From a virus: a stretch of DNA of 42,810 nt. Every line of letters begins with the position of its first letter. Within the stretch, counting starts at the first letter, position 1. The stretch is taken from UHGV virus genome UHGV-0330108. The stretch is one strand, 5' to 3'. A program made the position numbers and the translations under genes. Under the pieces are notes generated by a model. It saw only the letters and a list, made by a program, of their open reading frames with translations, ran no database searches and was not told where the DNA came from. Shown one piece after another: positions 4,988-42,093 of this stretch.

Positions 4988-5009
4988 AGCCCCGAAAGGG
5001 GCTTTCTTA
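4988..5009 (+). terminator. hairpin / weak terminator between portal and head morphogenesis genes
   Basis: AGCCCC-GAAA-GGGGCT followed by TTCTTA. Confidence 0.35.
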
Positions 5010-6554: not shown

Positions 6555-6585
6555 AAGGCCCCTTACGGGGCCTTAGTTTTATTTG
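6555..6585. terminator. bidirectional rho-independent terminator
   Basis: AAGGCCCC-TTAC-GGGGCCTT flanked by an A-run upstream and AGTTTTATTT downstream, at a convergent gene junction. Confidence 0.55.
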
Positions 6586-6797
6586 AAGAATATCGCGAAT
6601 TTCTTGTAACCCGCTGGCTCGTTGCGCAGACCGTGTTCGTTAGCAAAACGTTGTATATTGTTAAAGTCATTTTCACCCATTCCGTCCGTATCGAACGTAA
6701 AGAAATTACGTTTGTTCCCGATAAGCACACGGCTTGTGATATCAATGCCGTAAAGTTCTTTGATGGCACGTACAACGTTTGCAGTAGCTTTGTTCAT
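6579..6797 (-). CDS. hypothetical protein (72 aa), isolated minus-strand gene
   Basis: ORF track frame 6579-6896; internal ATG at 6797 preceded by TAAGGAATTTGGAA; a TATAAT-containing 23-mer lies ~33 nt upstream. Confidence 0.5.
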   Translation of the reverse strand: MNKATANVVRAIKELYGIDITSRVLIGNKRNFFTFDTDGMGENDFNNIQRFANEHGLRNEPAGYKKFAIFFK

Positions 6798-6829
6798 TTC
6801 CAAATTCCTTATCTCTCGTTTCGATGTAA

Positions 6830-6852
6830 TGAATAGTACCCTATTATATTGG
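6830..6852 (-). promoter_or_regulatory. promoter/operator cassette TGAATAGTACCCTATTATATTGG (minus-strand TATAAT plus palindrome GAATAG-N4-CTATTA)
   Basis: Perfect TATAAT on the minus strand overlapping a 16-bp palindrome; the identical 23-mer recurs at 16043-16065. Confidence 0.45.
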
Positions 6853-6927
6853 TGTCTGCAAACTATTTGTTTACGTATTCCAGTTATTCCACTCAATTGT
6901 AAATGTTGGAATAAACTATTCGAATAG

Positions 6928-6956
6928 TTGACTTTTCACTAAAAATGTGCTAAGCT
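6928..6956 (+). promoter_or_regulatory. putative sigma70-like promoter (TTGACT-N17-TAAGCT, TG-extended) next to palindrome AACTATTCGAATAGTT
   Basis: -35 is a good match, -10 is weak; palindromic half-sites overlap the -35. Confidence 0.3.
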
Positions 6957-7180
6957 CCACCTGAGCTTGTGAAGTATGAACAAGCGACCGCGGCGCGGGC
7001 AGGTAACGGAGCGGGACGTAAGTCCTGAGTGTAGTTACGCTGACGCGTTCGGAAGGGCCATACTCTATTGCTTGTGTAAAAAGTAACTGGTTTACTGAGA
7101 TTACGCCGTTTCTATGTTTAAATGATAAGGACTAGCGCCCCGCTTTATGGCGGGGCTTTACTTATCGAGAAAGGAGAAAC

Positions 7181-7567
7181 ATGAATCTTAAAGCAACTGT
7201 CGTAGCTGGGGCGTGTTTCATCATCCTGGCTTACGCACACGGCATCTACCAGTATCGCACCGGCTGGAACGAAGGCCGGGCGAATCTCGTTTCGCGGCAA
7301 CAGCAGAAAGCACAGGCTGAGTTAGCGAAGAAAACACAACGGCAGCAGCAGGATGAATCAAAGGCCGCGGCCGCTGACAACGAAGGCAAGACGAAATCAG
7401 AGGTAATTACCCGTGAAGTCGTTAAGTACATTAGAACGCCTGGTCGCAGCGTGTGCACTTTCGATAATGCTCGCGTCCTGCTCAAGTCCCGCGCCGTCGC
7501 AAACGCCAATTCCATCCCCGGATACGACGATGATGCAGCCACCGTGCAAACTGGCAGCACCAAGTAG
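7181..7567 (+). CDS. putative i-spanin (Rz-like)
   Basis: N-terminal TM helix (ATVVAGACFIILAYAHGIY) then a charged, Q/A/K-rich periplasmic region; AAGGAG RBS; contains an embedded +1-frame lipoprotein ORF. Confidence 0.6.
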   Translation: MNLKATVVAGACFIILAYAHGIYQYRTGWNEGRANLVSRQQQKAQAELAKKTQRQQQDESKAAAADNEGKTKSEVITREVVKYIRTPGRSVCTFDNARVLLKSRAVANANSIPGYDDDAATVQTGSTK

Positions 7568-13916: not shown

Positions 13917-13950
13917 AACTAAGGCCCCAAACGGGGCCTTTTTCTTACTC
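13917..13950. terminator. bidirectional rho-independent terminator cassette
   Basis: AAAACT-AAGGCCCC-AAAC-GGGGCCTT-TTTTCTTACTC; the minus-strand gene's stop codon lies in the T-tract. Near-identical copy at 25239-25277. Confidence 0.65.
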
Positions 13951-16042: not shown

Positions 16043-16065
16043 TGAATAGTACCCTATTATATTGG
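16043..16065 (-). promoter_or_regulatory. promoter/operator cassette TGAATAGTACCCTATTATATTGG, identical to 6830-6852
   Basis: Exact 23-mer repeat with minus-strand TATAAT and the palindrome, directly upstream of the island's first gene. Confidence 0.45.
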
Positions 16066-16181
16066 GGCGCGCAAGTAGTGTGCTAGAATAGGTTTGCGCC
16101 TAGTGTCGCACACGAAAAGCGGGTGGTTCCCGTCTGGCGCATCAACCTTAACCCGTAACCTCTTAACCAAAGGATTAAAGA

Positions 16182-25238: not shown

Positions 25239-25277
25239 AAAAAAACTAAGGCCCCAAACGGGGCCTTTTCTTTACTC
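25239..25277. terminator. bidirectional rho-independent terminator cassette
   Basis: A9-CT-AAGGCCCC-AAAC-GGGGCCTT-TTCTTTACTC; core identical to 13917-13950; contains the stop codon of a minus-strand small gene. Confidence 0.65.
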
Positions 25278-27341: not shown

Positions 27342-27653
27342 TCAATTCCTTATATTGTTGGTGCAGGGATAACTATAATAGTTCGCTATTAGGTCGTCAA
27401 CCTCTTCTTTTGTTCCTACTACAAAAACATTTGCGTCACGTTTACGAAGCCGTTTGTGTTCCCGCAACTGATGGGCCTCCGGTTCCGTGTTTTCGTCTTT
27501 CTTCACCTCGACGAACCATATAACCCCTCCAGGAAGGGCTACCAGCAGGTCAGGCGCTCCGTTTCTACCCTCATAAGACAGCTTACGAACGAGGCCACCA
27601 ATGGCCTCGAATTGCTCTTTTGCGTATTTCTGTATTTTTCCTTCCGGGGTCAT
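27342..27653 (-). CDS. VRR-NUC domain nuclease
   Basis: ORF track frame 27342-27668; ATG at 27653; motif GAPDLLVALPGGVIWFVEVKKDE fits the VRR-NUC/PD-(D/E)XK signature. Confidence 0.7.
   Translation of the reverse strand: MTPEGKIQKYAKEQFEAIGGLVRKLSYEGRNGAPDLLVALPGGVIWFVEVKKDENTEPEAHQLREHKRLRKRDANVFVVGTKEEVDDLIANYYSYPCTNNIRN
27372..27400 (-). promoter_or_regulatory. sigma70-like promoter (minus: TTGACG-N17-TATAGT) with palindrome TAATAGTTCGCTATTA in the spacer
   Basis: Read on the reverse complement; lies inside the 3' end of the VRR-NUC gene, upstream of 27045-27338. Confidence 0.55.
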
Positions 27654-27802
27654 GAGCGCAGAACCCAAGTAAGGAAAGACCCTCCGAGAACGGCAACGCC
27701 CGCAAACTTAAAGAACAGGCCATAGCAGAACATCGCGGCTATTCCCGCACCGAGTAACAGTGCGATCATGGTTACTATCGTCCAAAATACAAACATTGTC
27801 AT
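27650..27802 (-). CDS. small membrane protein (50 aa)
   Basis: Not in the ORF track; ATG at 27802 with GGGAGGG 9 nt upstream; stop overlaps the VRR-NUC ATG (ATGA); hydrophobic. Confidence 0.35.
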   Translation of the reverse strand: MTMFVFWTIVTMIALLLGAGIAAMFCYGLFFKFAGVAVLGGSFLTWVLRS

Positions 27803-30227: not shown

Positions 30228-30247
30228 AAGGCCCAATGAAGGGCCTT
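30228..30247 (-). terminator. intra-operon hairpin / weak terminator between the SSB-like gene and the DNA polymerase gene
   Basis: Minus-strand AAGGCCC-TTCATT-GGGCCTT followed by TTTACTA. Confidence 0.35.
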
Positions 30248-30896: not shown

Positions 30897-30949
30897 CGTG
30901 ATTTCTCGCTTTTCAGTTTACTCCGGGAACTGCCCGGCCAGTTATTAGA

Positions 30950-30978
30950 ACTATAATAGTTAACTATTCAGGTGTCAA
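30950..30978 (-). promoter_or_regulatory. sigma70-like promoter (minus: TTGACA-N17-TATAGT) with perfect palindrome GAATAGTTAACTATTA in the spacer
   Basis: Consensus -35, near-consensus -10, 17-bp spacer; ~45 nt upstream of the ATG at 30896. Confidence 0.6.
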
Positions 30979-31211
30979 CCCTTCCAGCCAGTTATTTTCT
31001 CGACTAGCCAGATATACTTGTTTGGCCAGTTCAAATTGCGTACCCACTCAACTTCTTTGGTGTACACCAACTCCTCTAGTTCTATTTTCCTGCACTTAAA
31101 GGCGGTATACACGAAAAACGGAAGAAGCATTATAACTAGCGGCAGTATCAGAGCGTGATAAGTTAAAAACGCCACAAAACCGCCAATTACTCTGAACATT
31201 TTACGAATCAT
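30975..31211 (-). CDS. small membrane protein (78 aa from MIRKMF...)
   Basis: ORF track frame 30975-31241; ATG at 31211 overlaps the exonuclease stop, with GAGGAGGA upstream; hydrophobic core. Confidence 0.45.
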   Translation of the reverse strand: MIRKMFRVIGGFVAFLTYHALILPLVIMLLPFFVYTAFKCRKIELEELVYTKEVEWVRNLNWPNKYIWLVEKITGWKG

Positions 31212-33485: not shown

Positions 33486-33515
33486 ACTATAATAGCGAAC
33501 TATTCATGTTGTCAA
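33486..33515 (-). promoter_or_regulatory. sigma70-like promoter (minus: TTGACA-N18-TATAGT) with palindrome GAATAGTTCGCTATTA
   Basis: Same architecture as 27372-27400 and 30950-30978; divergent from the XRE regulator gene. Confidence 0.55.
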
Positions 33516-33520
33516 TGGGC

Positions 33521-33549
33521 TTTTCTAAAATAATTAATATGGTACTATT
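33521..33549 (+). promoter_or_regulatory. putative promoter of the XRE regulator gene (-10 TACTAT within AATATGGTACTATTCA, weak -35)
   Basis: -10-like hexamer inside an operator-like half-palindrome, ~30 nt upstream of TAAGGAG. Confidence 0.35.
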
Positions 33550-33579: not shown

Positions 33580-33795
33580 ATGCAACCATCTGAACTAGGC
33601 ATCCGTGTAGAACAACGCCGCAAAGAACTTGGCATCTCCCAGCGCCGTCTGGCTGTCATGGCTGGCGTTTCCCAGGGCGCAATTAACCAGCTGGCACTTG
33701 GAGTAACTCAGGACGTCCGCCCGGCAACGCTGTTTAAACTGGCGGAAGTGCTTGAAGTAGACGCCAAGTGGCTGGCGTTCGGTGAAGGGGCTTAA
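33580..33795 (+). CDS. XRE-family HTH transcriptional regulator (Cro/CI-like, 71 aa)
   Basis: HTH segment ISQRRLAVMAGVSQGAINQLALG; TAAGGAG RBS; lone plus-strand gene with its own promoter and terminator. Confidence 0.75.
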   Translation: MQPSELGIRVEQRRKELGISQRRLAVMAGVSQGAINQLALGVTQDVRPATLFKLAEVLEVDAKWLAFGEGA

Positions 33796-33810
33796 CGCCC
33801 CTTTATTTTT
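33786..33810 (+). terminator. rho-independent terminator after the XRE regulator gene
   Basis: AGGGGC-TTAAC-GCCCCT followed by TTTATTTTT; the stop codon sits in the loop. Confidence 0.6.
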
Positions 33811-33812
33811 AC

Positions 33813-36083
33813 CTATTCCAAATCCTCCTCCGTCACCACCAGCATTTCATTCGGTTCGTATATTGTCTTCGGAATCTTGTTATCGTTTATACCCCACGGC
33901 AACCGGTATTGCTTAGGGATCGGCCTGTTGTTGTTATCCAGCCCAGAGACTATAACCCCAGCCTCGTGCATCTCTTCCAGTTTCTTTCGAAGGTCGTTAT
34001 TAGCGTTAATCGGTACGCCGTAACTATCTTCTTTCGCCGCTTTGACGATAGCAGACATAGAAAATCCTCGCTTGTCGTCGCCCTGCTCCTGCAATTTACC
34101 CAATGCGTAGATAACCGTAGCCTCTTTGGTATCCAGTTTCTCGAACTGACCTACCTTTTCTTTAACAGCCGCTTTACCTTCTTTAGTTAACCCTTCTTCC
34201 CGCTCTTTCTCCTCGTCAGTCTTAAACGGCTCAAAGCCCCACGGCATCAACACAAGCGCCTTATGCGGCTCAGGCAGGTCGAGGTTTACGATTATGCCGT
34301 ATTCCTCTGTACTACCCAGGAACTCAACCGCGCGGTATTCTTTCGGCGGCGGGGCTTCACGGAACTGTACCGACTCCAGCACCATGCCAACCGTCTTCTG
34401 CTGCGGCCCGTGCTTAAATTTTGAGTGGTATACGTTTATCTGTCGGTCGGTAGCGCGTTCGATTGTCAGTTCCACATCGACACCCGCATACAGAGCGCCG
34501 CTGCCACGGGCTTTCTTTCCGCCTTTCGGTGTGTGGTGAACGACGCCCACCGCGGCTTTAGTCGCGTCACGCACTTCTTTCAGGATGGCGATAACTTTAC
34601 CCATGCCGATTGCCGTTGATGAGCTGTTCTCGTCGAACTTATCAATAGTCAGTGCCAGGGTCTGGTTGAGGGTGTCAAACGCGACCATGCCGATTGGCTC
34701 GTCGCCAGCAGTTTCGCGCATTAACTTAATCAGGCTCTTCAGTTTGCCGACTTCACCCATGTCTATGACATGTATATAATCTTTACCTTCCGCGCCGTAT
34801 TTAGCCGCGAGCGCATCAATACGTGTACGTGTGGCTGCACCACCTTCACCGTCGATATAGAAATGGTGGCAACGCTGGGTGTCCGCCCCTGCGAAGCGAT
34901 AGCCTGCGGCGCTGAGGTACATCATCCCCAGCGTATAGAATGATTTGTACGTGCCTGATTCCCCGACGATATCCCAGATACAATCTGACGGCATGTACCC
35001 TTCTACGACGAAATCAGCCTTTACAGGTTCCGGTAGCTCGTCCTCCTCGGAGTCTTCGTCATCTTCCAGGTCGTCCAGGCTACACGAAACAGATTCACGC
35101 GCGCCCCATCCGATTGCCTCAGCAACTTCACTGAACGGCAGACCAGTCGCATCGCACGCATACTTCCACACCTCTTTCGGTGACATGCCCTCGGTTGCCG
35201 TAATGTCGGTGTCGTGGATCATGGTTACGTTAGGCGCTTCGTACCCTTCGCGCGGGAAGCACAGCAGGAAGTCATCCGGGCGCGGCGTAGGGTCGCTGTA
35301 GTTCTCTGCGTGCTCCGGTGTAGCGGGCATCTTAAGGCCGCGCGGCGTCATGACGCCACCATACTCAAACGCCAGTGCTTCGAACGCGTCCGTAAACGCG
35401 GTGCGCAGTTCTTCCGGTATCTGGTAATCCGATGCGCTGCTCACCTCGTAATCCGGTACGCCTTCCAGTAACTCTTCCGGGTCAATCAGGTCGTTGCGAC
35501 GCGACCAGATAACAGTAGCACCGACCGGCGGCAGATACATCGGCTGCGACAGAGTGAACCCGCTGCGGTCCGCACCCATGCCTTTGAAGAAGTGCTCAAG
35601 CAACCCATGACGAACGCGAATGATGTCACCACCTTCAACCGGGCGGGCCAGCGGCATGACGACACGAAAGCGAGGGGACTCGTCGGTATGCGATGCCGTG
35701 GTGTAGATGCACATCGCCCGGCGGCTGCGCTTAACCAGGCGCACAGCTTCCTGATACTCTTCCGGCGTTGCACTGTCGAAGTCCAGATACGCCAGCGACG
35801 ATTTGCTTACAGACGCATCGCAGCGATAGAAGAAACCTTTACGCGCTTCCTTAAAGTCACCGGTTTCCGGGTCTTTTACGGTGCTGTGTGTGGAGTCACA
35901 CGCGCCGGTGATGTAGCCCGGCGCGGTCTTCGGGTTAATCCCGTCACGAACGGCATCAAGCGGCTGGATTAACTCTTTCAGGTCGTCCAGTGTTGCCGTG
36001 TGTGTGGTTCTGACGTTTATATCCTTTTTCTCTGCCCGCGCGTTGCGACGAGACCACGAGTAGGATAAAATCACATCGGACAT
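33813..36083 (-). CDS. primase-helicase-like replication protein (RecA-fold ATPase with N-terminal primase-like region)
   Basis: Walker A-like VGESGTYKS, HFYIDGEGG and VVHHTPKGGKKARGSGALYAGVDVE; 756 aa. Confidence 0.7.
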   Translation of the reverse strand: MSDVILSYSWSRRNARAEKKDINVRTTHTATLDDLKELIQPLDAVRDGINPKTAPGYITGACDSTHSTVKDPETGDFKEARKGFFYRCDASVSKSSLAYLDFDSATPEEYQEAVRLVKRSRRAMCIYTTASHTDESPRFRVVMPLARPVEGGDIIRVRHGLLEHFFKGMGADRSGFTLSQPMYLPPVGATVIWSRRNDLIDPEELLEGVPDYEVSSASDYQIPEELRTAFTDAFEALAFEYGGVMTPRGLKMPATPEHAENYSDPTPRPDDFLLCFPREGYEAPNVTMIHDTDITATEGMSPKEVWKYACDATGLPFSEVAEAIGWGARESVSCSLDDLEDDEDSEEDELPEPVKADFVVEGYMPSDCIWDIVGESGTYKSFYTLGMMYLSAAGYRFAGADTQRCHHFYIDGEGGAATRTRIDALAAKYGAEGKDYIHVIDMGEVGKLKSLIKLMRETAGDEPIGMVAFDTLNQTLALTIDKFDENSSSTAIGMGKVIAILKEVRDATKAAVGVVHHTPKGGKKARGSGALYAGVDVELTIERATDRQINVYHSKFKHGPQQKTVGMVLESVQFREAPPPKEYRAVEFLGSTEEYGIIVNLDLPEPHKALVLMPWGFEPFKTDEEKEREEGLTKEGKAAVKEKVGQFEKLDTKEATVIYALGKLQEQGDDKRGFSMSAIVKAAKEDSYGVPINANNDLRKKLEEMHEAGVIVSGLDNNNRPIPKQYRLPWGINDNKIPKTIYEPNEMLVVTEEDLE

Positions 36084-36141: not shown

Positions 36142-36375
36142 TTATTCCAGGTCTTCTAAAGTAGCGGTCATTCCGCGAACTTCAGCAACGGCGCTATATT
36201 TCCCGCCAACGTTTTTCACGACACCGGATTTAACCAGTACACGTAACGACGCTTCAATAATGGCTGAACTATAGTACTTAAAATAACTACGGCGCAAGTC
36301 GATAACGCTGCACGACCCTTTTTTACGTGTTAACGAAACGACCGCCGTAAATACGCGTGACTGGAACTCGGTCAT
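36142..36375 (-). CDS. hypothetical protein (77 aa) with C-terminal LEDLE
   Basis: ORF track; coupled to the upstream HTH gene. Confidence 0.45.
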   Translation of the reverse strand: MTEFQSRVFTAVVSLTRKKGSCSVIDLRRSYFKYYSSAIIEASLRVLVKSGVVKNVGGKYSAVAEVRGMTATLEDLE

Positions 36376-36542
36376 TTCACGTTCTCCTTAATCCACGCTT
36401 CCACTTTCTCCGGGTCGAACGTACCCGGCTGACGGCGACCCATAATACGAATACAGCAATCCGGGAACTTCCCACTCTTTAACCAGTTATTCAGCGTACG
36501 GCGGGTAACCCCGATACGCTCCGCTACCTCATTCTGTGTCAT
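36372..36542 (-). CDS. small HTH DNA-binding protein (56 aa from MTQNEV...)
   Basis: ORF track frame 36372-36575 starts at TTG; ATG at 36542 has GAGGGT upstream; HTH-like EVAERIGVTRRTLNNWLKSGKFP. Confidence 0.55.
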   Translation of the reverse strand: MTQNEVAERIGVTRRTLNNWLKSGKFPDCCIRIMGRRQPGTFDPEKVEAWIKENVK

Positions 36543-36983: not shown

Positions 36984-37012
36984 TTGCACATCCCAACATA
37001 ATAGGATACTAT
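36984..37012 (+). promoter_or_regulatory. putative promoter (TTGCAC-N17-TACTAT) with palindrome TAATAGGATACTATTC over the -10
   Basis: Same hexamers, spacing and operator placement as 38498-38526; ~35 nt upstream of the 37046 gene; coordinates approximate. Confidence 0.45.
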
Positions 37013-37045
37013 TCACTTATCGAAACAAGACAGAGGAGTGGGGGT

Positions 37046-37231
37046 ATGTTTAAGAAGGGTCAGTTGGTGAAAACGAAAGATTTCGGTTATTACGGTGTTA
37101 TAGAACAAATTTCAAGTAAGGTTAACGGGATGTGCTACATCCGTACACCTAACCAGCGTTTCGGTAAGTGGTGCTTCGGGGACGAGATAAAACTCATCGG
37201 CAACAATTTTAAATTCAAAGGGGCGAAGTGA
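37046..37231 (+). CDS. hypothetical protein (61 aa)
   Basis: ORF track; GAGGAGTGGGGG RBS. Confidence 0.5.
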   Translation: MFKKGQLVKTKDFGYYGVIEQISSKVNGMCYIRTPNQRFGKWCFGDEIKLIGNNFKFKGAK

Positions 37232-38497: not shown

Positions 38498-38526
38498 TTG
38501 CACACTGATATAGAATAGGCTACTAT
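38498..38526 (+). promoter_or_regulatory. putative promoter (TTGCAC-N17-TACTAT) with palindrome GAATAGGCTACTATTC over the -10
   Basis: Same architecture as 36984-37012; ~30 nt upstream of GGGAGGAGAG and the ATG at 38558. Confidence 0.5.
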
Positions 38527-38557
38527 TCATTTACACAAATGGGAGGAGAGACAGAAG

Positions 38558-41855: not shown

Positions 41856-41944
41856 CAGAGTTTGACTTCATTCTGTTGTCTATAGGCGCTGGTGCGGTAG
41901 TTGGCGTGATTTGGGGTATGATTGGCGGGAGTAGTAAAGGTTGA
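41852..41944 (+). CDS. small membrane peptide (30 aa) coupled to the endolysin
   Basis: Not in the ORF track; GTG overlaps the endolysin stop; GGGAGGG 7 nt upstream; hydrophobic. Confidence 0.3.
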   Translation: MTEFDFILLSIGAGAVVGVIWGMIGGSSKG

Positions 41945-42010
41945 CACCTAAGACTAATCCGACGATACTTAAATCACCTCCTGCTCCATCCCTCTGCTCT
42001 CCAGTTTTAT

Positions 42011-42042
42011 CCCGGCCCTGACCCAGCCGGGATTTTTTTTTT
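42011..42042 (+). terminator. rho-independent terminator after the lysis cassette
   Basis: CCCGGC-CCTGACCCA-GCCGGG followed by a T10 run. Confidence 0.7.
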
Positions 42043-42064
42043 ATCTATTTTCTGTAATGACTAG

Positions 42065-42093
42065 TTGACTATTACCTACGACCCTACTATATT
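42065..42093 (+). promoter_or_regulatory. putative sigma70-like promoter (TTGACT-N17-TATATT)
   Basis: Good hexamers and spacing ~35 nt upstream of the 42127 gene. Confidence 0.5.

What the first reader, a model, noticed from the sequence alone, without database searches (positions are those of the whole stretch)
30950..30978. Recurring promoter design TTGAC(A/G)-N17/18-TATAGT with a 16-bp palindrome (T/G)AATAG-N4-CTATT(C/A) in the spacer
Three minus-strand sites (27372-27400, 30950-30978, 33486-33515) share the same hexamers, spacing and an embedded palindrome over ~35 bp. The same palindrome consensus is also present at 6830-6852, 16043-16065, ~36999-37014 and 38513-38528. One DNA-binding dimer could therefore control a regulon covering the replication genes and several accessory units.
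Basis: seen in the sequence. Interest (0 to 1): 0.7.

Follow-up and report, generated by a model that had tools for sequence, protein, structure and literature searches.

The report
Cro-like operator set on phage promoters
A 14-base palindrome sits on nearly every early and replication promoter of this "strictly lytic" E. coli phage and is most likely the binding site of the phage's own small 434-Cro-like repressor, a familiar kind of switch that published work on a related phage had mislabelled as phage RNA-polymerase promoters.

Summary
AATAG-N4-CTATT occurs 7 times exactly (0.02-0.03 expected), and TTGACR-N17/18-TATAGT occurs 3 times (0.06 expected). The window is a Kagunavirus-like phage (Guernseyvirinae).

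The palindrome always overlaps a sigma-70-type core promoter, in three registers:
- in the spacer, abutting the -10 (27377, 30955, 33491);
- over a TACTAT -10 (6832, 16045, 37000, 38514, plus a one-mismatch copy at 33536);
- as one-mismatch copies over a TTGACT -35 (6923, 42060).

In about 55 related loci the arms are invariant at orthologous promoters while the central 4 bp vary.

The best candidate binder is the 71-aa HTH_3 protein at 33580-33795. It is about 40% identical to phage 434 Cro, is transcribed divergently from the 33491 promoter, and has the 33536 copy on its own promoter. The other HTH protein (HTH_17, 36372-36542) is excluded: phage ST20 lacks it yet keeps the sites. Three variants of the 71-aa protein go with three operator variants in Kaguna-, Jersey- and Cornellvirus.

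Binding and repression are inferred, not shown. The motif was already published (fBC-Eco01) as "phage RNAP promoters", but no RNA polymerase is annotated in a close relative, and the motif's symmetry and shifting register do not fit that reading. I rate it a new member of a known kind, of moderate interest.

The parts
30950..30978 (-). Class 1 promoter/operator: TTGACA (30978-30973), 17-bp spacer, TATAGT (30955-30950), operator GAATAGTTAACTATTA at 30955-30968. It drives the Enc34-type ssDNA-binding protein gene (30896-30267) and, past a hairpin at 30228-30247, the DNA polymerase gene (30207-28006).
   Evidence: orthologous alignment of 43 unique upstream regions
27372..27400 (-). Class 1 promoter/operator: TTGACG-N17-TATAGT, operator TAATAGCGAACTATTA at 27377-27390. 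It lies in the last codons of ORF 27342-27668 and drives a 97-aa ORF (27338-27045), a 64-aa ORF and the large helicase gene (26839-25406).
   Evidence: helicase identified from the annotations of relatives
33486..33515 (-). Class 1 promoter/operator O1: TTGACA-N18-TATAGT, operator GAATAGTTCGCTATTA at 33491-33504. It drives a 151-aa ORF (33453-32998), small ORFs and the PD-(D/E)XK nuclease gene (32473-31208). It is divergent from the regulator gene.
   Evidence: the operator is exact in 35 of 35 unique Kagunavirus upstream regions
33520..33549 (+). The regulator's own promoter, with one-mismatch operator O2 (AATATGGTACTATT, 33536-33549). The -35 is weak (CTTTTC, 33520-33525) and the -10 is TACTAT (33543-33548). 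The G-to-T 'mismatch' creates a TGn extended -10.
   Evidence: invariant in 35 Kagunavirus loci and kept as AATATGCTACTATT in the 78-80% protein variants
33580..33795 (+). Candidate operator-binding protein: 71-aa HTH_3 (XRE/Cro-type) gene, monocistronic, followed by a terminator-like hairpin at 33785-33804.
   Evidence: Pfam HTH_3 E=1.1e-12; best PDB sequence hit is 434 Cro, E=3.7e-7 over the full length; AF2 model pLDDT 83.7 with five helices; Foldseek top hit 2cro, 41% identity, TM 0.75/0.81; terminator
6832..6861 (-). Class 2 promoter/operator: TTGCAG (6861-6856), 17-bp spacer, TACTAT (6838-6833) inside the operator TAATAGGGTACTATTC (6832-6845). It drives a 72-aa ORF (6797-6579), which ends at the bidirectional terminator 6555-6574.
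16045..16074 (-). Class 2 promoter/operator: TTGCGC-N17-TACTAT, operator at 16045-16058. It drives the superinfection-immunity gene (about 16015-15824), the gene annotated as a metallophosphoesterase in relatives (15786-14656), an HNH endonuclease gene (14659-14189) and a 76-aa ORF, up to terminator 13921-13940.
36984..37013 (+). Class 2 promoter/operator: TTGCAC-N17-TACTAT, operator TAATAGGATACTATTC at 37000-37013. It drives the rightward block of small early-type ORFs starting at 37046.
   Evidence: conserved in 25 of 29 unique upstream regions
38498..38527 (+). Class 2 promoter/operator: TTGCAC-N17-TACTAT, operator GAATAGGCTACTATTC at 38514-38527. It drives ORFs from 38558 onward, with the lysis genes further downstream.
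42060..42093 (+). Class 3: one-mismatch operator ACTAGTTGACTATT (42060-42073) centred on the -35 of TTGACT-N17-TATATT (42065-42093). It follows a terminator and drives small ORFs and then the terminase and head genes.
   Evidence: invariant in about 27 Kagunavirus loci; Jerseyvirus has AATAGTTGACTAGT, the mirror-image mismatch
6923..6956 (+). Class 3: one-mismatch operator AATAGTTGACTTTT (6923-6936) centred on the -35 of TTGACT-N17-TAAGCT (6928-6956). It lies upstream of the spanin, scaffold and capsid genes.
36372..36542 (-). Rejected candidate binder: 56-aa HTH_17 protein gene, with its own operator-free promoter TTGATT-N17-TATACT (36603-36575).
   Evidence: absent from the complete ST20 genome, which keeps the operators
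16062..16089 (+). Speculative tail-operon promoter TTGGGG-N16-(TGc)TAGAAT. It overlaps the leftward 16074-16046 promoter. The operator leaves it free and is centred about 44 bp upstream of its inferred start.
   Evidence: inference only, and no equivalent was found in Jerseyvirus Ent2

Best explanation
The palindrome (T/G)AATAG-N4-CTATT(A/C) is the operator of the phage's own 71-aa 434-Cro-like HTH protein (33580-33795). A dimer of this protein would bind it, one recognition helix per AATAG arm, leaving the central 4 bp uncontacted. Every copy overlaps the -35, the spacer or the -10 of a host sigma-70-type promoter. Occupancy should therefore exclude RNA polymerase and turn down the three replication/recombination units, the two rightward early units, the superinfection-immunity unit and a 72-aa gene. 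Weaker one-mismatch copies on the regulator's own promoter and on two rightward promoters would respond only at higher protein levels, giving graded shut-off and self-limitation. What is shown: the motif, its excess over chance, its geometry, its conservation, the fold and family of the protein, and the exclusion of the HTH_17 protein. What is inferred: that this protein is the binder, that it binds as a dimer, that the effect is repression, and the timing.
For: (1) The excess over chance and the promoter overlap are clear. (2) Footprint-like conservation: 171 exact sites in 37 Kagunavirus loci and 41 in 13 Jerseyvirus loci. At orthologous promoters the arms are invariant and the central N4 varies; 28 different centres occur in Kagunavirus. 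(3) The same 14 bp occurs in three registers relative to the promoter, so it is an independent module rather than a promoter element. (4) The adjacent protein is HTH_3 (E=1.1e-12). Its best PDB hit by sequence and by fold is 434 Cro, a 71-aa chain matched over nearly its whole length. From memory, 434 Cro binds a 14-bp operator of the same layout. (5) In the alignment, 434-repressor residues Q28, Q33 and R43 align with identical residues here, while Q29 aligns with G33. From memory of the 434 complexes, Q28, Q29 and Q33 contact operator bases and R43 the central minor groove. The half-sites ACAAG and AATAG differ at bp 2-3. (6) The gene is divergent from O1, carries the weakened O2 on its own -10, and has its own terminator. 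(7) Covariation. Protein variants at 78-99% identity share an identical recognition helix and the same operator set, even where the O1-O2 intergenic DNA has diverged. The Jersey-type protein (52% identity) goes with strictly TAATAG half-sites, including three mosaic loci whose ssb promoter flanks are otherwise Kaguna-like. The Cornell-type protein (41% identity) goes with ATTAG-N4-GTATT: 9 sites at one mismatch or fewer against 2.04 expected, in the same three registers and on its own promoter. (8) The only other clear DNA-binding protein, HTH_17, is absent from ST20 and from Cornellvirus. (9) In RNA-seq of a related Kagunavirus, the only annotated early-peaking gene is an HTH-domain gene (PMC12645636). 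That this gene is the XRE homologue is my inference.
Against: There is no binding or expression data. The AATAG core is unchanged between Kaguna- and Jerseyvirus although their proteins are only 52% identical and differ at three recognition-helix positions. The Cornellvirus motif is consistently asymmetric, which is odd for a symmetric homodimer. The class 2 promoters match the sigma-70 consensus only about 7 of 12, and no transcription start is mapped. Repression of the promoters upstream of the terminase and capsid genes by the class 3 sites is counter-intuitive for late genes. An unrecognised small phage protein or a host factor is not excluded.
Confidence: 0.6

Rival explanations
1. The sites are operators, but the binder is another factor: an unrecognised small phage protein conserved in all three genera, or a host (E. 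coli/Salmonella) transcription factor.
For: The core half-site is identical in Kaguna- and Jerseyvirus despite 52% identity of the XRE protein. Many small ORFs have no Pfam hit. The hosts of both genera share most transcription factors.
Against: Apart from HTH_17, Pfam finds only a weak sub-threshold NinH-like HTH among the small ORFs scanned. The operator variants track the XRE variants, and Salmonella-infecting Cornellvirus has a different motif from Salmonella-infecting Jerseyvirus. The weakened copy on the XRE promoter is invariant. I know of no E. coli factor with this consensus (memory only; TrpR's ACTAGT-based operator is the nearest).
Confidence: 0.2
2. The same protein has two roles. 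It represses at most sites, but at the 16045 divergent region its binding flips two overlapping promoters from leftward (imm) to rightward (tail operon) transcription. This could work by relieving RNA-polymerase competition or by direct contact, in the manner of lambda CI at PRM or the R-M controller proteins.
For: The best plus-strand promoter candidate upstream of the tail genes, TTGGGG-N16-TGcTAGAAT (16062-16089), overlaps the leftward promoter core. The operator covers only the leftward -10 and is centred about 44 bp upstream of the rightward start. Controller proteins appear among the fold matches.
Against: The rightward promoter is a weak consensus match and has no counterpart in Jerseyvirus Ent2. 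The offset is 2-3 bp away from the classic -41.5/-42 activator position. The other late-type promoters are not arranged this way.
Confidence: 0.12
3. The 56-aa HTH_17 (MerR/AlpA/excisionase-like) protein binds the palindrome in the promoter spacer, as a MerR-type activator or an AlpA/Q-like factor that loads onto RNA polymerase.
For: It is 81-87% identical between Kaguna- and Jerseyvirus, matching the conserved core, and it is absent from Cornellvirus, which lacks the exact motif. The class 1 sites lie in the spacer.
Against: The complete ST20 genome and loci L024/L025 have no HTH_17 gene; in L025 and ST20 the module is seen replaced by 47-aa and 149-aa genes. Yet ST20 keeps 6 exact and 3 one-mismatch sites. 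The spacers are 17-18 bp, not the 19-20 bp typical of MerR-type promoters. Cornellvirus has an analogous regulon without this protein.
Confidence: 0.03
4. The motif is a promoter for a phage-encoded RNA polymerase. This is the published reading for fBC-Eco01: PHIRE consensus tgAATAGTa-ccTATTat-T.
For: PMC9825357 lists seven such 'phage RNAP promoters'. The motif is phage-specific and lies upstream of genes.
Against: No RNA polymerase is annotated among the 77 genes of the close relative fFiEco02. The window ORFs longer than about 400 aa occupy the positions of that relative's terminase, structural protein, tape measure, tail, tailspike, helicase, DNA polymerase, nuclease and primase genes. The motif is a palindrome, sits at three different offsets from genes, and is embedded in sigma-70-type -35/-10 pairs.
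Confidence: 0.02

Closest known systems
Phage 434 Cro and its 14-bp operators (OR1-3, OL1-3; ACAAG-N4-CTTGT type)
   Same: The 434 Cro chain and this protein are both 71 aa, about 40% identical, with a five-helix HTH_3 fold. The operator has the same layout: 14 bp, conserved 5-bp arms and a variable 4-bp centre. It overlaps early promoters. Graded operator strengths include a weaker site on the regulator's own promoter.
   Different: The half-site is AATAG rather than ACAAG. No CI partner, immunity switch or integrase is evident. The gene is a monocistronic unit divergent from the early genes, which is the position cI occupies, rather than the first gene of the early operon. There are about ten dispersed single operators across a 43-kb genome instead of two tripartite clusters.
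Lambda and P22 Cro, the shut-off of early promoters during lytic growth
   Same: The proposed role is the same: a small dimeric HTH protein turns down early and replication transcription from host-polymerase promoters.
   Different: Lambda Cro has a different fold. Here the regulon reaches replication, immunity and possibly late promoters, in a phage regarded as strictly virulent.
Controller (C) proteins of restriction-modification systems (C.AhdI, C.Esp1396I, C.BclI)
   Same: They are small XRE-type dimers and appear among the fold matches. They use operators of graded affinity on their own promoter to create a timed switch.
   Different: C proteins act on one locus with paired operators and are activators first. 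Here there are many dispersed single operators that overlap core promoter elements.
'Phage-specific promoters' found by PHIRE in Kagunavirus genomes (fBC-Eco01, PMC9825357; seven unlisted PHIRE promoters in vB_EcoS-Golestan, PMC7203180)
   Same: For fBC-Eco01 it is the same sequence element and the same count of seven per genome. For Golestan only the count of seven is given.
   Different: fBC-Eco01 assigns them to a phage RNA polymerase. The evidence here points to operators laid over host-type promoters.

Membership tests
XRE / HTH_3 (Cro/CI-type) transcription regulators | HTH_3 domain detectable by profile | tested here: met
   Pfam PF01381, E=1.1e-12, 48.2 bits against a cut-off of 23
XRE / HTH_3 (Cro/CI-type) transcription regulators | Five-helix 434-Cro/repressor-like fold | tested here: met
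   AF2 model pLDDT 83.7 with helices at 5-17, 21-28, 32-39, 48-57 and 62-67. Foldseek top hit 2cro, TM 0.75/0.81, 41% identity. phmmer hit to 434 Cro, E=3.7e-7.
XRE / HTH_3 (Cro/CI-type) transcription regulators | Binds a palindromic operator as a homodimer | not testable with these tools
   Only indirect evidence: a 14-bp palindrome beside the gene, and covariation of operator and protein variants
Repressor operators overlapping sigma-70 promoters | The site overlaps the -35, spacer or -10 of a promoter with consensus-like hexamers and a 17±1 bp spacer | tested here: met
   Class 1 sites match 10-11 of 12 consensus positions with 17-18 bp spacers. Class 2 is TTGCnn-N17-TACTAT and class 3 has TTGACT as the -35. 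Transcription starts are not mapped.
Repressor operators overlapping sigma-70 promoters | Arms conserved and centre free among orthologues (footprint-like pattern) | tested here: met
   the arm columns show 1 base (rarely 2) and the centre columns 2-3 bases. O1 is exact in 35 of 35 unique Kagunavirus upstream regions.
Lambdoid immunity region (CI/Cro bistable switch) | A CI-type repressor with a C-terminal oligomerisation/S24 domain, paired with Cro | tested here: not met
   The only XRE-type gene is 71 aa. The relatives' annotations list a single transcriptional repressor (the homologue of this 71-aa protein) and no integrase, and the Pfam scans of small ORFs gave no such hit.
Lambdoid immunity region (CI/Cro bistable switch) | Operators between divergent promoters, one serving the regulator gene | tested here: met
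   O1 (33491-33504) and O2 (33536-33549) lie between the leftward 33515-33486 promoter and the regulator's own promoter. There are two sites rather than three.
Single-subunit phage RNA-polymerase promoters (published reading) | The phage encodes its own RNA polymerase | tested here: not met
   None of the 77 annotated genes of the close relative fFiEco02 is an RNA polymerase. The window ORFs over about 400 aa correspond by position to that relative's known functions. This rests on annotation, not on a dedicated profile search of every ORF.
Single-subunit phage RNA-polymerase promoters (published reading) | An asymmetric motif at a fixed distance and orientation from the transcription start | tested here: not met
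   The motif is a palindrome, found at three offsets relative to the flanking hexamers and start codons
MerR-type spacer operators | A palindrome in an over-long (19-20 bp) spacer, bound by a MerR-family protein | tested here: not met
   Spacers are 17-18 bp. The MerR-like HTH_17 gene is dispensable for keeping the motif.

The most novel reading that the evidence does not exclude
One Cro-sized protein times the whole lytic programme of phages regarded as having no repressor. In this reading, exact operators shut the early and replication promoters first, and one-mismatch operators act later on the regulator's own promoter and on the promoters upstream of the terminase and capsid genes. At the 16045 region, operator occupancy would flip two overlapping promoters from the leftward immunity unit to the rightward tail operon. 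That would give an early-to-late switch with no sigma factor, antiterminator or dedicated late activator. A further possibility not excluded by the evidence is that high levels of the protein allow a reversible, non-integrated quiescent state. This would matter because Kaguna- and Jerseyviruses are used as therapeutic and biocontrol phages.
Probability: 0.15. Interest if true: 0.6.

Novelty: new member of a known kind. Interest (0 to 1): 0.4.

Why it matters
Kaguna- and Jerseyviruses are among the phages most often isolated for E. coli and Salmonella therapy and biocontrol. Genome papers commonly state that they carry no repressor (for example PMC12919940). One paper labels this motif as a promoter for a phage RNA polymerase (PMC9825357).

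Recognising a Cro-like regulator with about ten operators has three uses. It corrects those annotations. It gives a concrete, testable transcription map for the subfamily. It also offers a compact part for engineering: a 71-aa repressor with a 16-bp operator that appears to work in three promoter registers. The three natural protein/operator variants form a ready-made series for studying how HTH specificity evolves.

Tried and rejected
- **HTH_17 protein as the binder.** It looked attractive at first. It is 81-87% conserved between the two genera that share the motif, and it is absent from Cornellvirus. I rejected it because phage ST20 and loci L024/L025 lack it but keep the sites.
- **77-aa ORF 36142-36375 as the binder.** I considered it and rejected it for the same reason: ST20-type phages replace it with a dissimilar 149-aa protein. 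Neither protein has a Pfam hit.
- **RNA-level function.** Rejected. With the proposed promoters the palindrome lies upstream of the transcription start, and a 5-bp stem is too weak.
- **De novo search for a gapped 5-N4-5 or 9-mer repeat in Cornellvirus loci.** It found nothing. The Cornellvirus motif emerged only by aligning orthologous promoters.
- **Palindrome scan upstream of more distant XRE homologues at 31-45% identity.** It gave no informative pattern.
- **RNA-seq paper on vB_Eco_K1B4.** Its supplement, as held, does not give phage gene coordinates, so I could not verify that K1B4_008 is the XRE homologue.
- **Host-genome motif search.** Not possible: collection scans need at least 14 specified bases and the motif has only 10-12.
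- **One-mismatch copy at 5008 (TATAGTATGCTATT).** It spans the start codon of the head-morphogenesis gene. I treat it as probable chance.

Full report
**What the window is.** The 7.2-kb replication region matches 455 phage records at roughly 85-90% identity. The best matches are Escherichia phages EcoPhCCP1 and fFiEco02 and other members of Kagunavirus (Guernseyvirinae); Salmonella Jerseyviruses match more distantly. Gene order follows fFiEco02. Terminase, head and tail genes are on the plus strand. Three minus-strand blocks are embedded among them. A minus-strand replication block spans about 25.4-36.6 kb, and a rightward block of small early-type ORFs plus lysis genes starts at 37 kb.

**Checking the observation.**
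That compares with 0.02 expected and 0.03 in 300 of my own dinucleotide shuffles.
- TTGACR-N16-19-TATAGT occurs three times against 0.06 expected. These three are the best sigma-70-like matches in the right half of the window.
- It is the commonest short palindrome in the genome. The runner-up, AAGGCCCC-N4-GGGGCCTT, marks bidirectional terminators.

**Anatomy.** In context the palindrome takes three registers relative to a promoter.
- **Class 1 (27377, 30955, 33491; minus strand).** The design is TTGAC(A/G)-N4/5-palindrome, with the last T of the palindrome serving as the first base of TATAGT. The operator fills the spacer.
- **Class 2 (6832 and 16045 on the minus strand; 37000 and 38514 on the plus strand).** The design is TTGC(A/G)(C/G)-N17-TACTAT, with the -10 occupying palindrome positions 8-13. 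Each is followed 30-45 nt later by a ribosome-binding site and start codon.
- **One-mismatch copies.** There are four against 1.03 expected, and three of them lie on promoters:
  - 33536 (AATATGGTACTATT) has class 2 geometry in front of the only plus-strand gene in the replication block.
  - 6923 (AATAGTTGACTTTT) and 42060 (ACTAGTTGACTATT) are centred on the -35 hexamer TTGACT of two rightward promoters. I call these class 3.
- One 14-bp module in three registers is what an operator looks like. A promoter element would keep a fixed register.
- The promoter of the HTH_17/primase-helicase unit (TTGATT-N17-TATACT, 36603-36575) carries no copy.

**Conservation.** I fetched 75 loci around homologues of the neighbouring HTH gene and several complete genomes.
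- 37 Kagunavirus loci hold 171 exact copies and 13 Jerseyvirus loci hold 41.
- At the orthologous ssb promoter, 29 of 30 unique Kagunavirus and 8 of 10 unique Jerseyvirus upstream regions have exact arms, while the four central columns vary. O1, next to the HTH gene, is exact in 35 of 35.
- The class 3 site at 42060 is invariant in about 27 Kagunavirus loci although its spacer varies freely. Jerseyvirus has AATAGTTGACTAGT there, which is the mirror-image position of the same A-to-C change. This suggests a deliberately weakened operator.

**Which protein binds.** Pfam finds two clear DNA-binding proteins among the small ORFs scanned.
- *HTH_17 (56 aa, 36372-36542).* It is 81-87% conserved between the two genera and missing from Cornellvirus Shemara, which lacks the exact motif. 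That made it a serious candidate.
- It fails a direct test. The complete genome of Escherichia phage ST20 has no HTH_17 gene (best tblastn E=0.05), and loci L024 and L025 have no hit either. In L025 and ST20 the module is replaced by unrelated 47-aa and 149-aa genes. ST20 nevertheless keeps six exact and three one-mismatch sites, and its XRE protein is 97% identical.
- *HTH_3/XRE (71 aa, 33580-33795).* It is present in every motif-bearing locus.
  - Its best PDB match by sequence is phage 434 Cro, a 71-aa chain (E=3.7e-7, nearly full length).
  - A single-sequence AlphaFold model (pLDDT 83.7, five helices) finds 434 Cro as the top structural hit (41% identity, TM 0.75/0.81).
  - From memory, 434 Cro and repressor bind 14-bp operators of the form ACAAG-N4-CTTGT. 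Q28, Q29 and Q33 read the arms, R43 lies in the central minor groove, and the centre is uncontacted.
  - In the alignment, Q28, Q33 and R43 align with Q32, Q37 and R47 here, while Q29 aligns with G33. The half-sites ACAAG and AATAG differ at bp 2-3. From memory, Q29 is the residue that reads that part of the 434 half-site.
  - The gene is monocistronic. It has a terminator-like hairpin over its stop codon and is divergent from the O1 promoter.
  - It carries O2 on its own -10. The invariant G-to-T 'mismatch' in O2 creates a TGn extended -10 that could offset the poor -35. In the 78-80% protein variants the centre changes (TGG to TGC) but the TG is kept.

**Covariation.**
- A database search found XRE variants at 78-86% identity in syntenic phage contigs. 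Their recognition helix is identical and the whole operator set is the same, although the O1-O2 intergenic DNA has diverged.
- Jersey-type proteins (52% identity, helix SQSLITH instead of SQGAINQ) go with strictly TAATAG half-sites. Kagunavirus sites typically pair one GAATAG half with one TAATAG half.
- Three loci with a Jersey-type protein but Kaguna-like ssb promoter flanks have T rather than G at that flanking position.
- Cornellviruses (41% identity, no HTH_17) have ATTAG-N4-GTATT at the homologous promoters. Shemara has nine sites with one mismatch or fewer against 2.04 expected, in the same three registers and on the XRE promoter. That pattern was derived post hoc and is oddly asymmetric.
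- Three protein types with three operator variants is what one expects if this protein is the binder. The unchanged AATAG core between Kaguna- and Jerseyvirus is the main counter-argument.

**Mechanism.** All copies overlap core promoter elements, so the simplest outcome of occupancy is exclusion of RNA polymerase. Exact operators cover these units:
- the three replication/recombination units: a 151-aa ORF through the nuclease gene; the SSB gene, with the DNA polymerase gene downstream; and a 97-aa ORF through the helicase gene;
- the two rightward early units;
- the imm/phosphoesterase/HNH unit;
- a 72-aa gene.

One-mismatch operators sit on the regulator's own promoter and on the promoters upstream of the terminase/head and capsid genes, which suggests graded, concentration-dependent control.

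A published RNA-seq series on a related Kagunavirus reports an HTH-domain gene as the only annotated early-peaking gene (PMC12645636). That it is the XRE homologue is my inference, and the time course looks asynchronous.

One speculative extension concerns 16045. The operator there covers the -10 of the leftward promoter but leaves free an overlapping rightward candidate, TTGGGG-N16-TGcTAGAAT, in front of the tail operon. Occupancy could switch direction. The candidate is weak and has no counterpart in Jerseyvirus.

**Prior knowledge.** The fBC-Eco01 genome paper found the same seven sites with PHIRE (consensus tgAATAGTa-ccTATTat-T; Table S2) and called them promoters for a phage-encoded RNA polymerase. 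The Golestan genome paper reports seven PHIRE promoters but does not list their sequences in the text.

No RNA polymerase is annotated in the close relative fFiEco02. The palindromic symmetry, the three registers and the embedding sigma-70 hexamers also argue against that reading. I found no paper in the held library that proposes an operator/repressor reading or tests it.

**Verdict.** The element is real, functional by every comparative criterion, and best explained as the operator set of an orphan 434-Cro-like regulator. It is a new member of a well-known kind. The motif itself was already noticed, but its published interpretation needs correcting.

My confidence that these are protein operators on host-type promoters is about 0.9. 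My confidence that the 71-aa XRE protein is the binder and acts as a repressor is about 0.6.

Noticed in passing
window 6555-6574, 13921-13940, 25248-25267 (variant at 30228-30247): A recurring perfect hairpin, AAGGCCCC-N4-GGGGCCTT, flanked by T-runs on both strands. It sits exactly where convergent transcription units meet and is probably a family of bidirectional terminators. The same hairpin family also occurs in fFiEco02 and, as the shorter GCCCC/GGCCCC forms, in Ent2 and Shemara.
   Followed up: partly
window 30920-30942 (minus strand, 5' leader of the ssb gene): A conserved hairpin, CCGGGCAGTTCCCGG, lies about 8-30 nt downstream of the 30955 -10 hexamer. fFiEco02 and Shemara have CCTGG...CCAGG, a compensatory double change. 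It may be a stabilising 5' stem-loop or a translational operator for the ssDNA-binding protein.
   Followed up: partly
window 36142-36542; L025 12559-13144; L079 (ST20) 6954-7539: The HTH_17 gene and the following 77-aa gene, located upstream of the primase-helicase gene, are replaced as a block in ST20-like Kagunaviruses. The replacement is a 47-aa CxxC...CxxC protein and a 149-aa protein, neither with a Pfam hit.
   Followed up: partly
window 6579-6861; compare L014, L016, L025, L033 upstream of the 61-aa gene homologue: The 72-aa gene (MNKATA...) sits between the head genes in this window. In several other Kagunaviruses it lies directly downstream of the 37000-type promoter instead. It looks like a relocating gene cassette.
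   Followed up: no
window 41941-42042: A good sigma-70-like promoter (TTGACA-N17-GATACT, 41941-41969) is followed about 45 nt later by a strong terminator (stem 42011-42031 plus a T-run), with no ORF between them. It could encode a small RNA of about 60-80 nt.
   Followed up: no
window 6914-6929: An everted arrangement of the operator arms, AACTATTCGAATAGTT (CTATT-N2-AATAG), abuts the -35 of the 6928 promoter. It is conserved in fFiEco02 and ST20. Its meaning is unclear.
   Followed up: no
window 16100-16150: The leader upstream of the tail-assembly-chaperone gene contains a block, GTCGCAC...AAAAGCGGGTGGTTCCCG(T/C)CTGGCGC, conserved between Kaguna- and Jerseyvirus. Shemara keeps the position but has diverged in sequence. 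It may be an RNA structure or a protein site.
   Followed up: no
L003 (Shemara) 6873, 8264, 27878, 31402, 35221, 35285, 38487, 39103: Cornellvirus has its own promoter-associated motif, ATTAG-N4-GTATT. It is consistently asymmetric and occurs in both orientations relative to promoters. In Shemara the XRE gene is followed by an overlapping 61-aa ORF (35548-35733), which might be a partner protein.
   Followed up: partly
window 30937-30946 and 30987-30996: A direct repeat, AATAACTGGC, flanks the ssb promoter. The upstream copy is shared with loci L010 and L034, while the downstream position reads AATCACTGGC in most relatives. It is probably of low significance.
   Followed up: no
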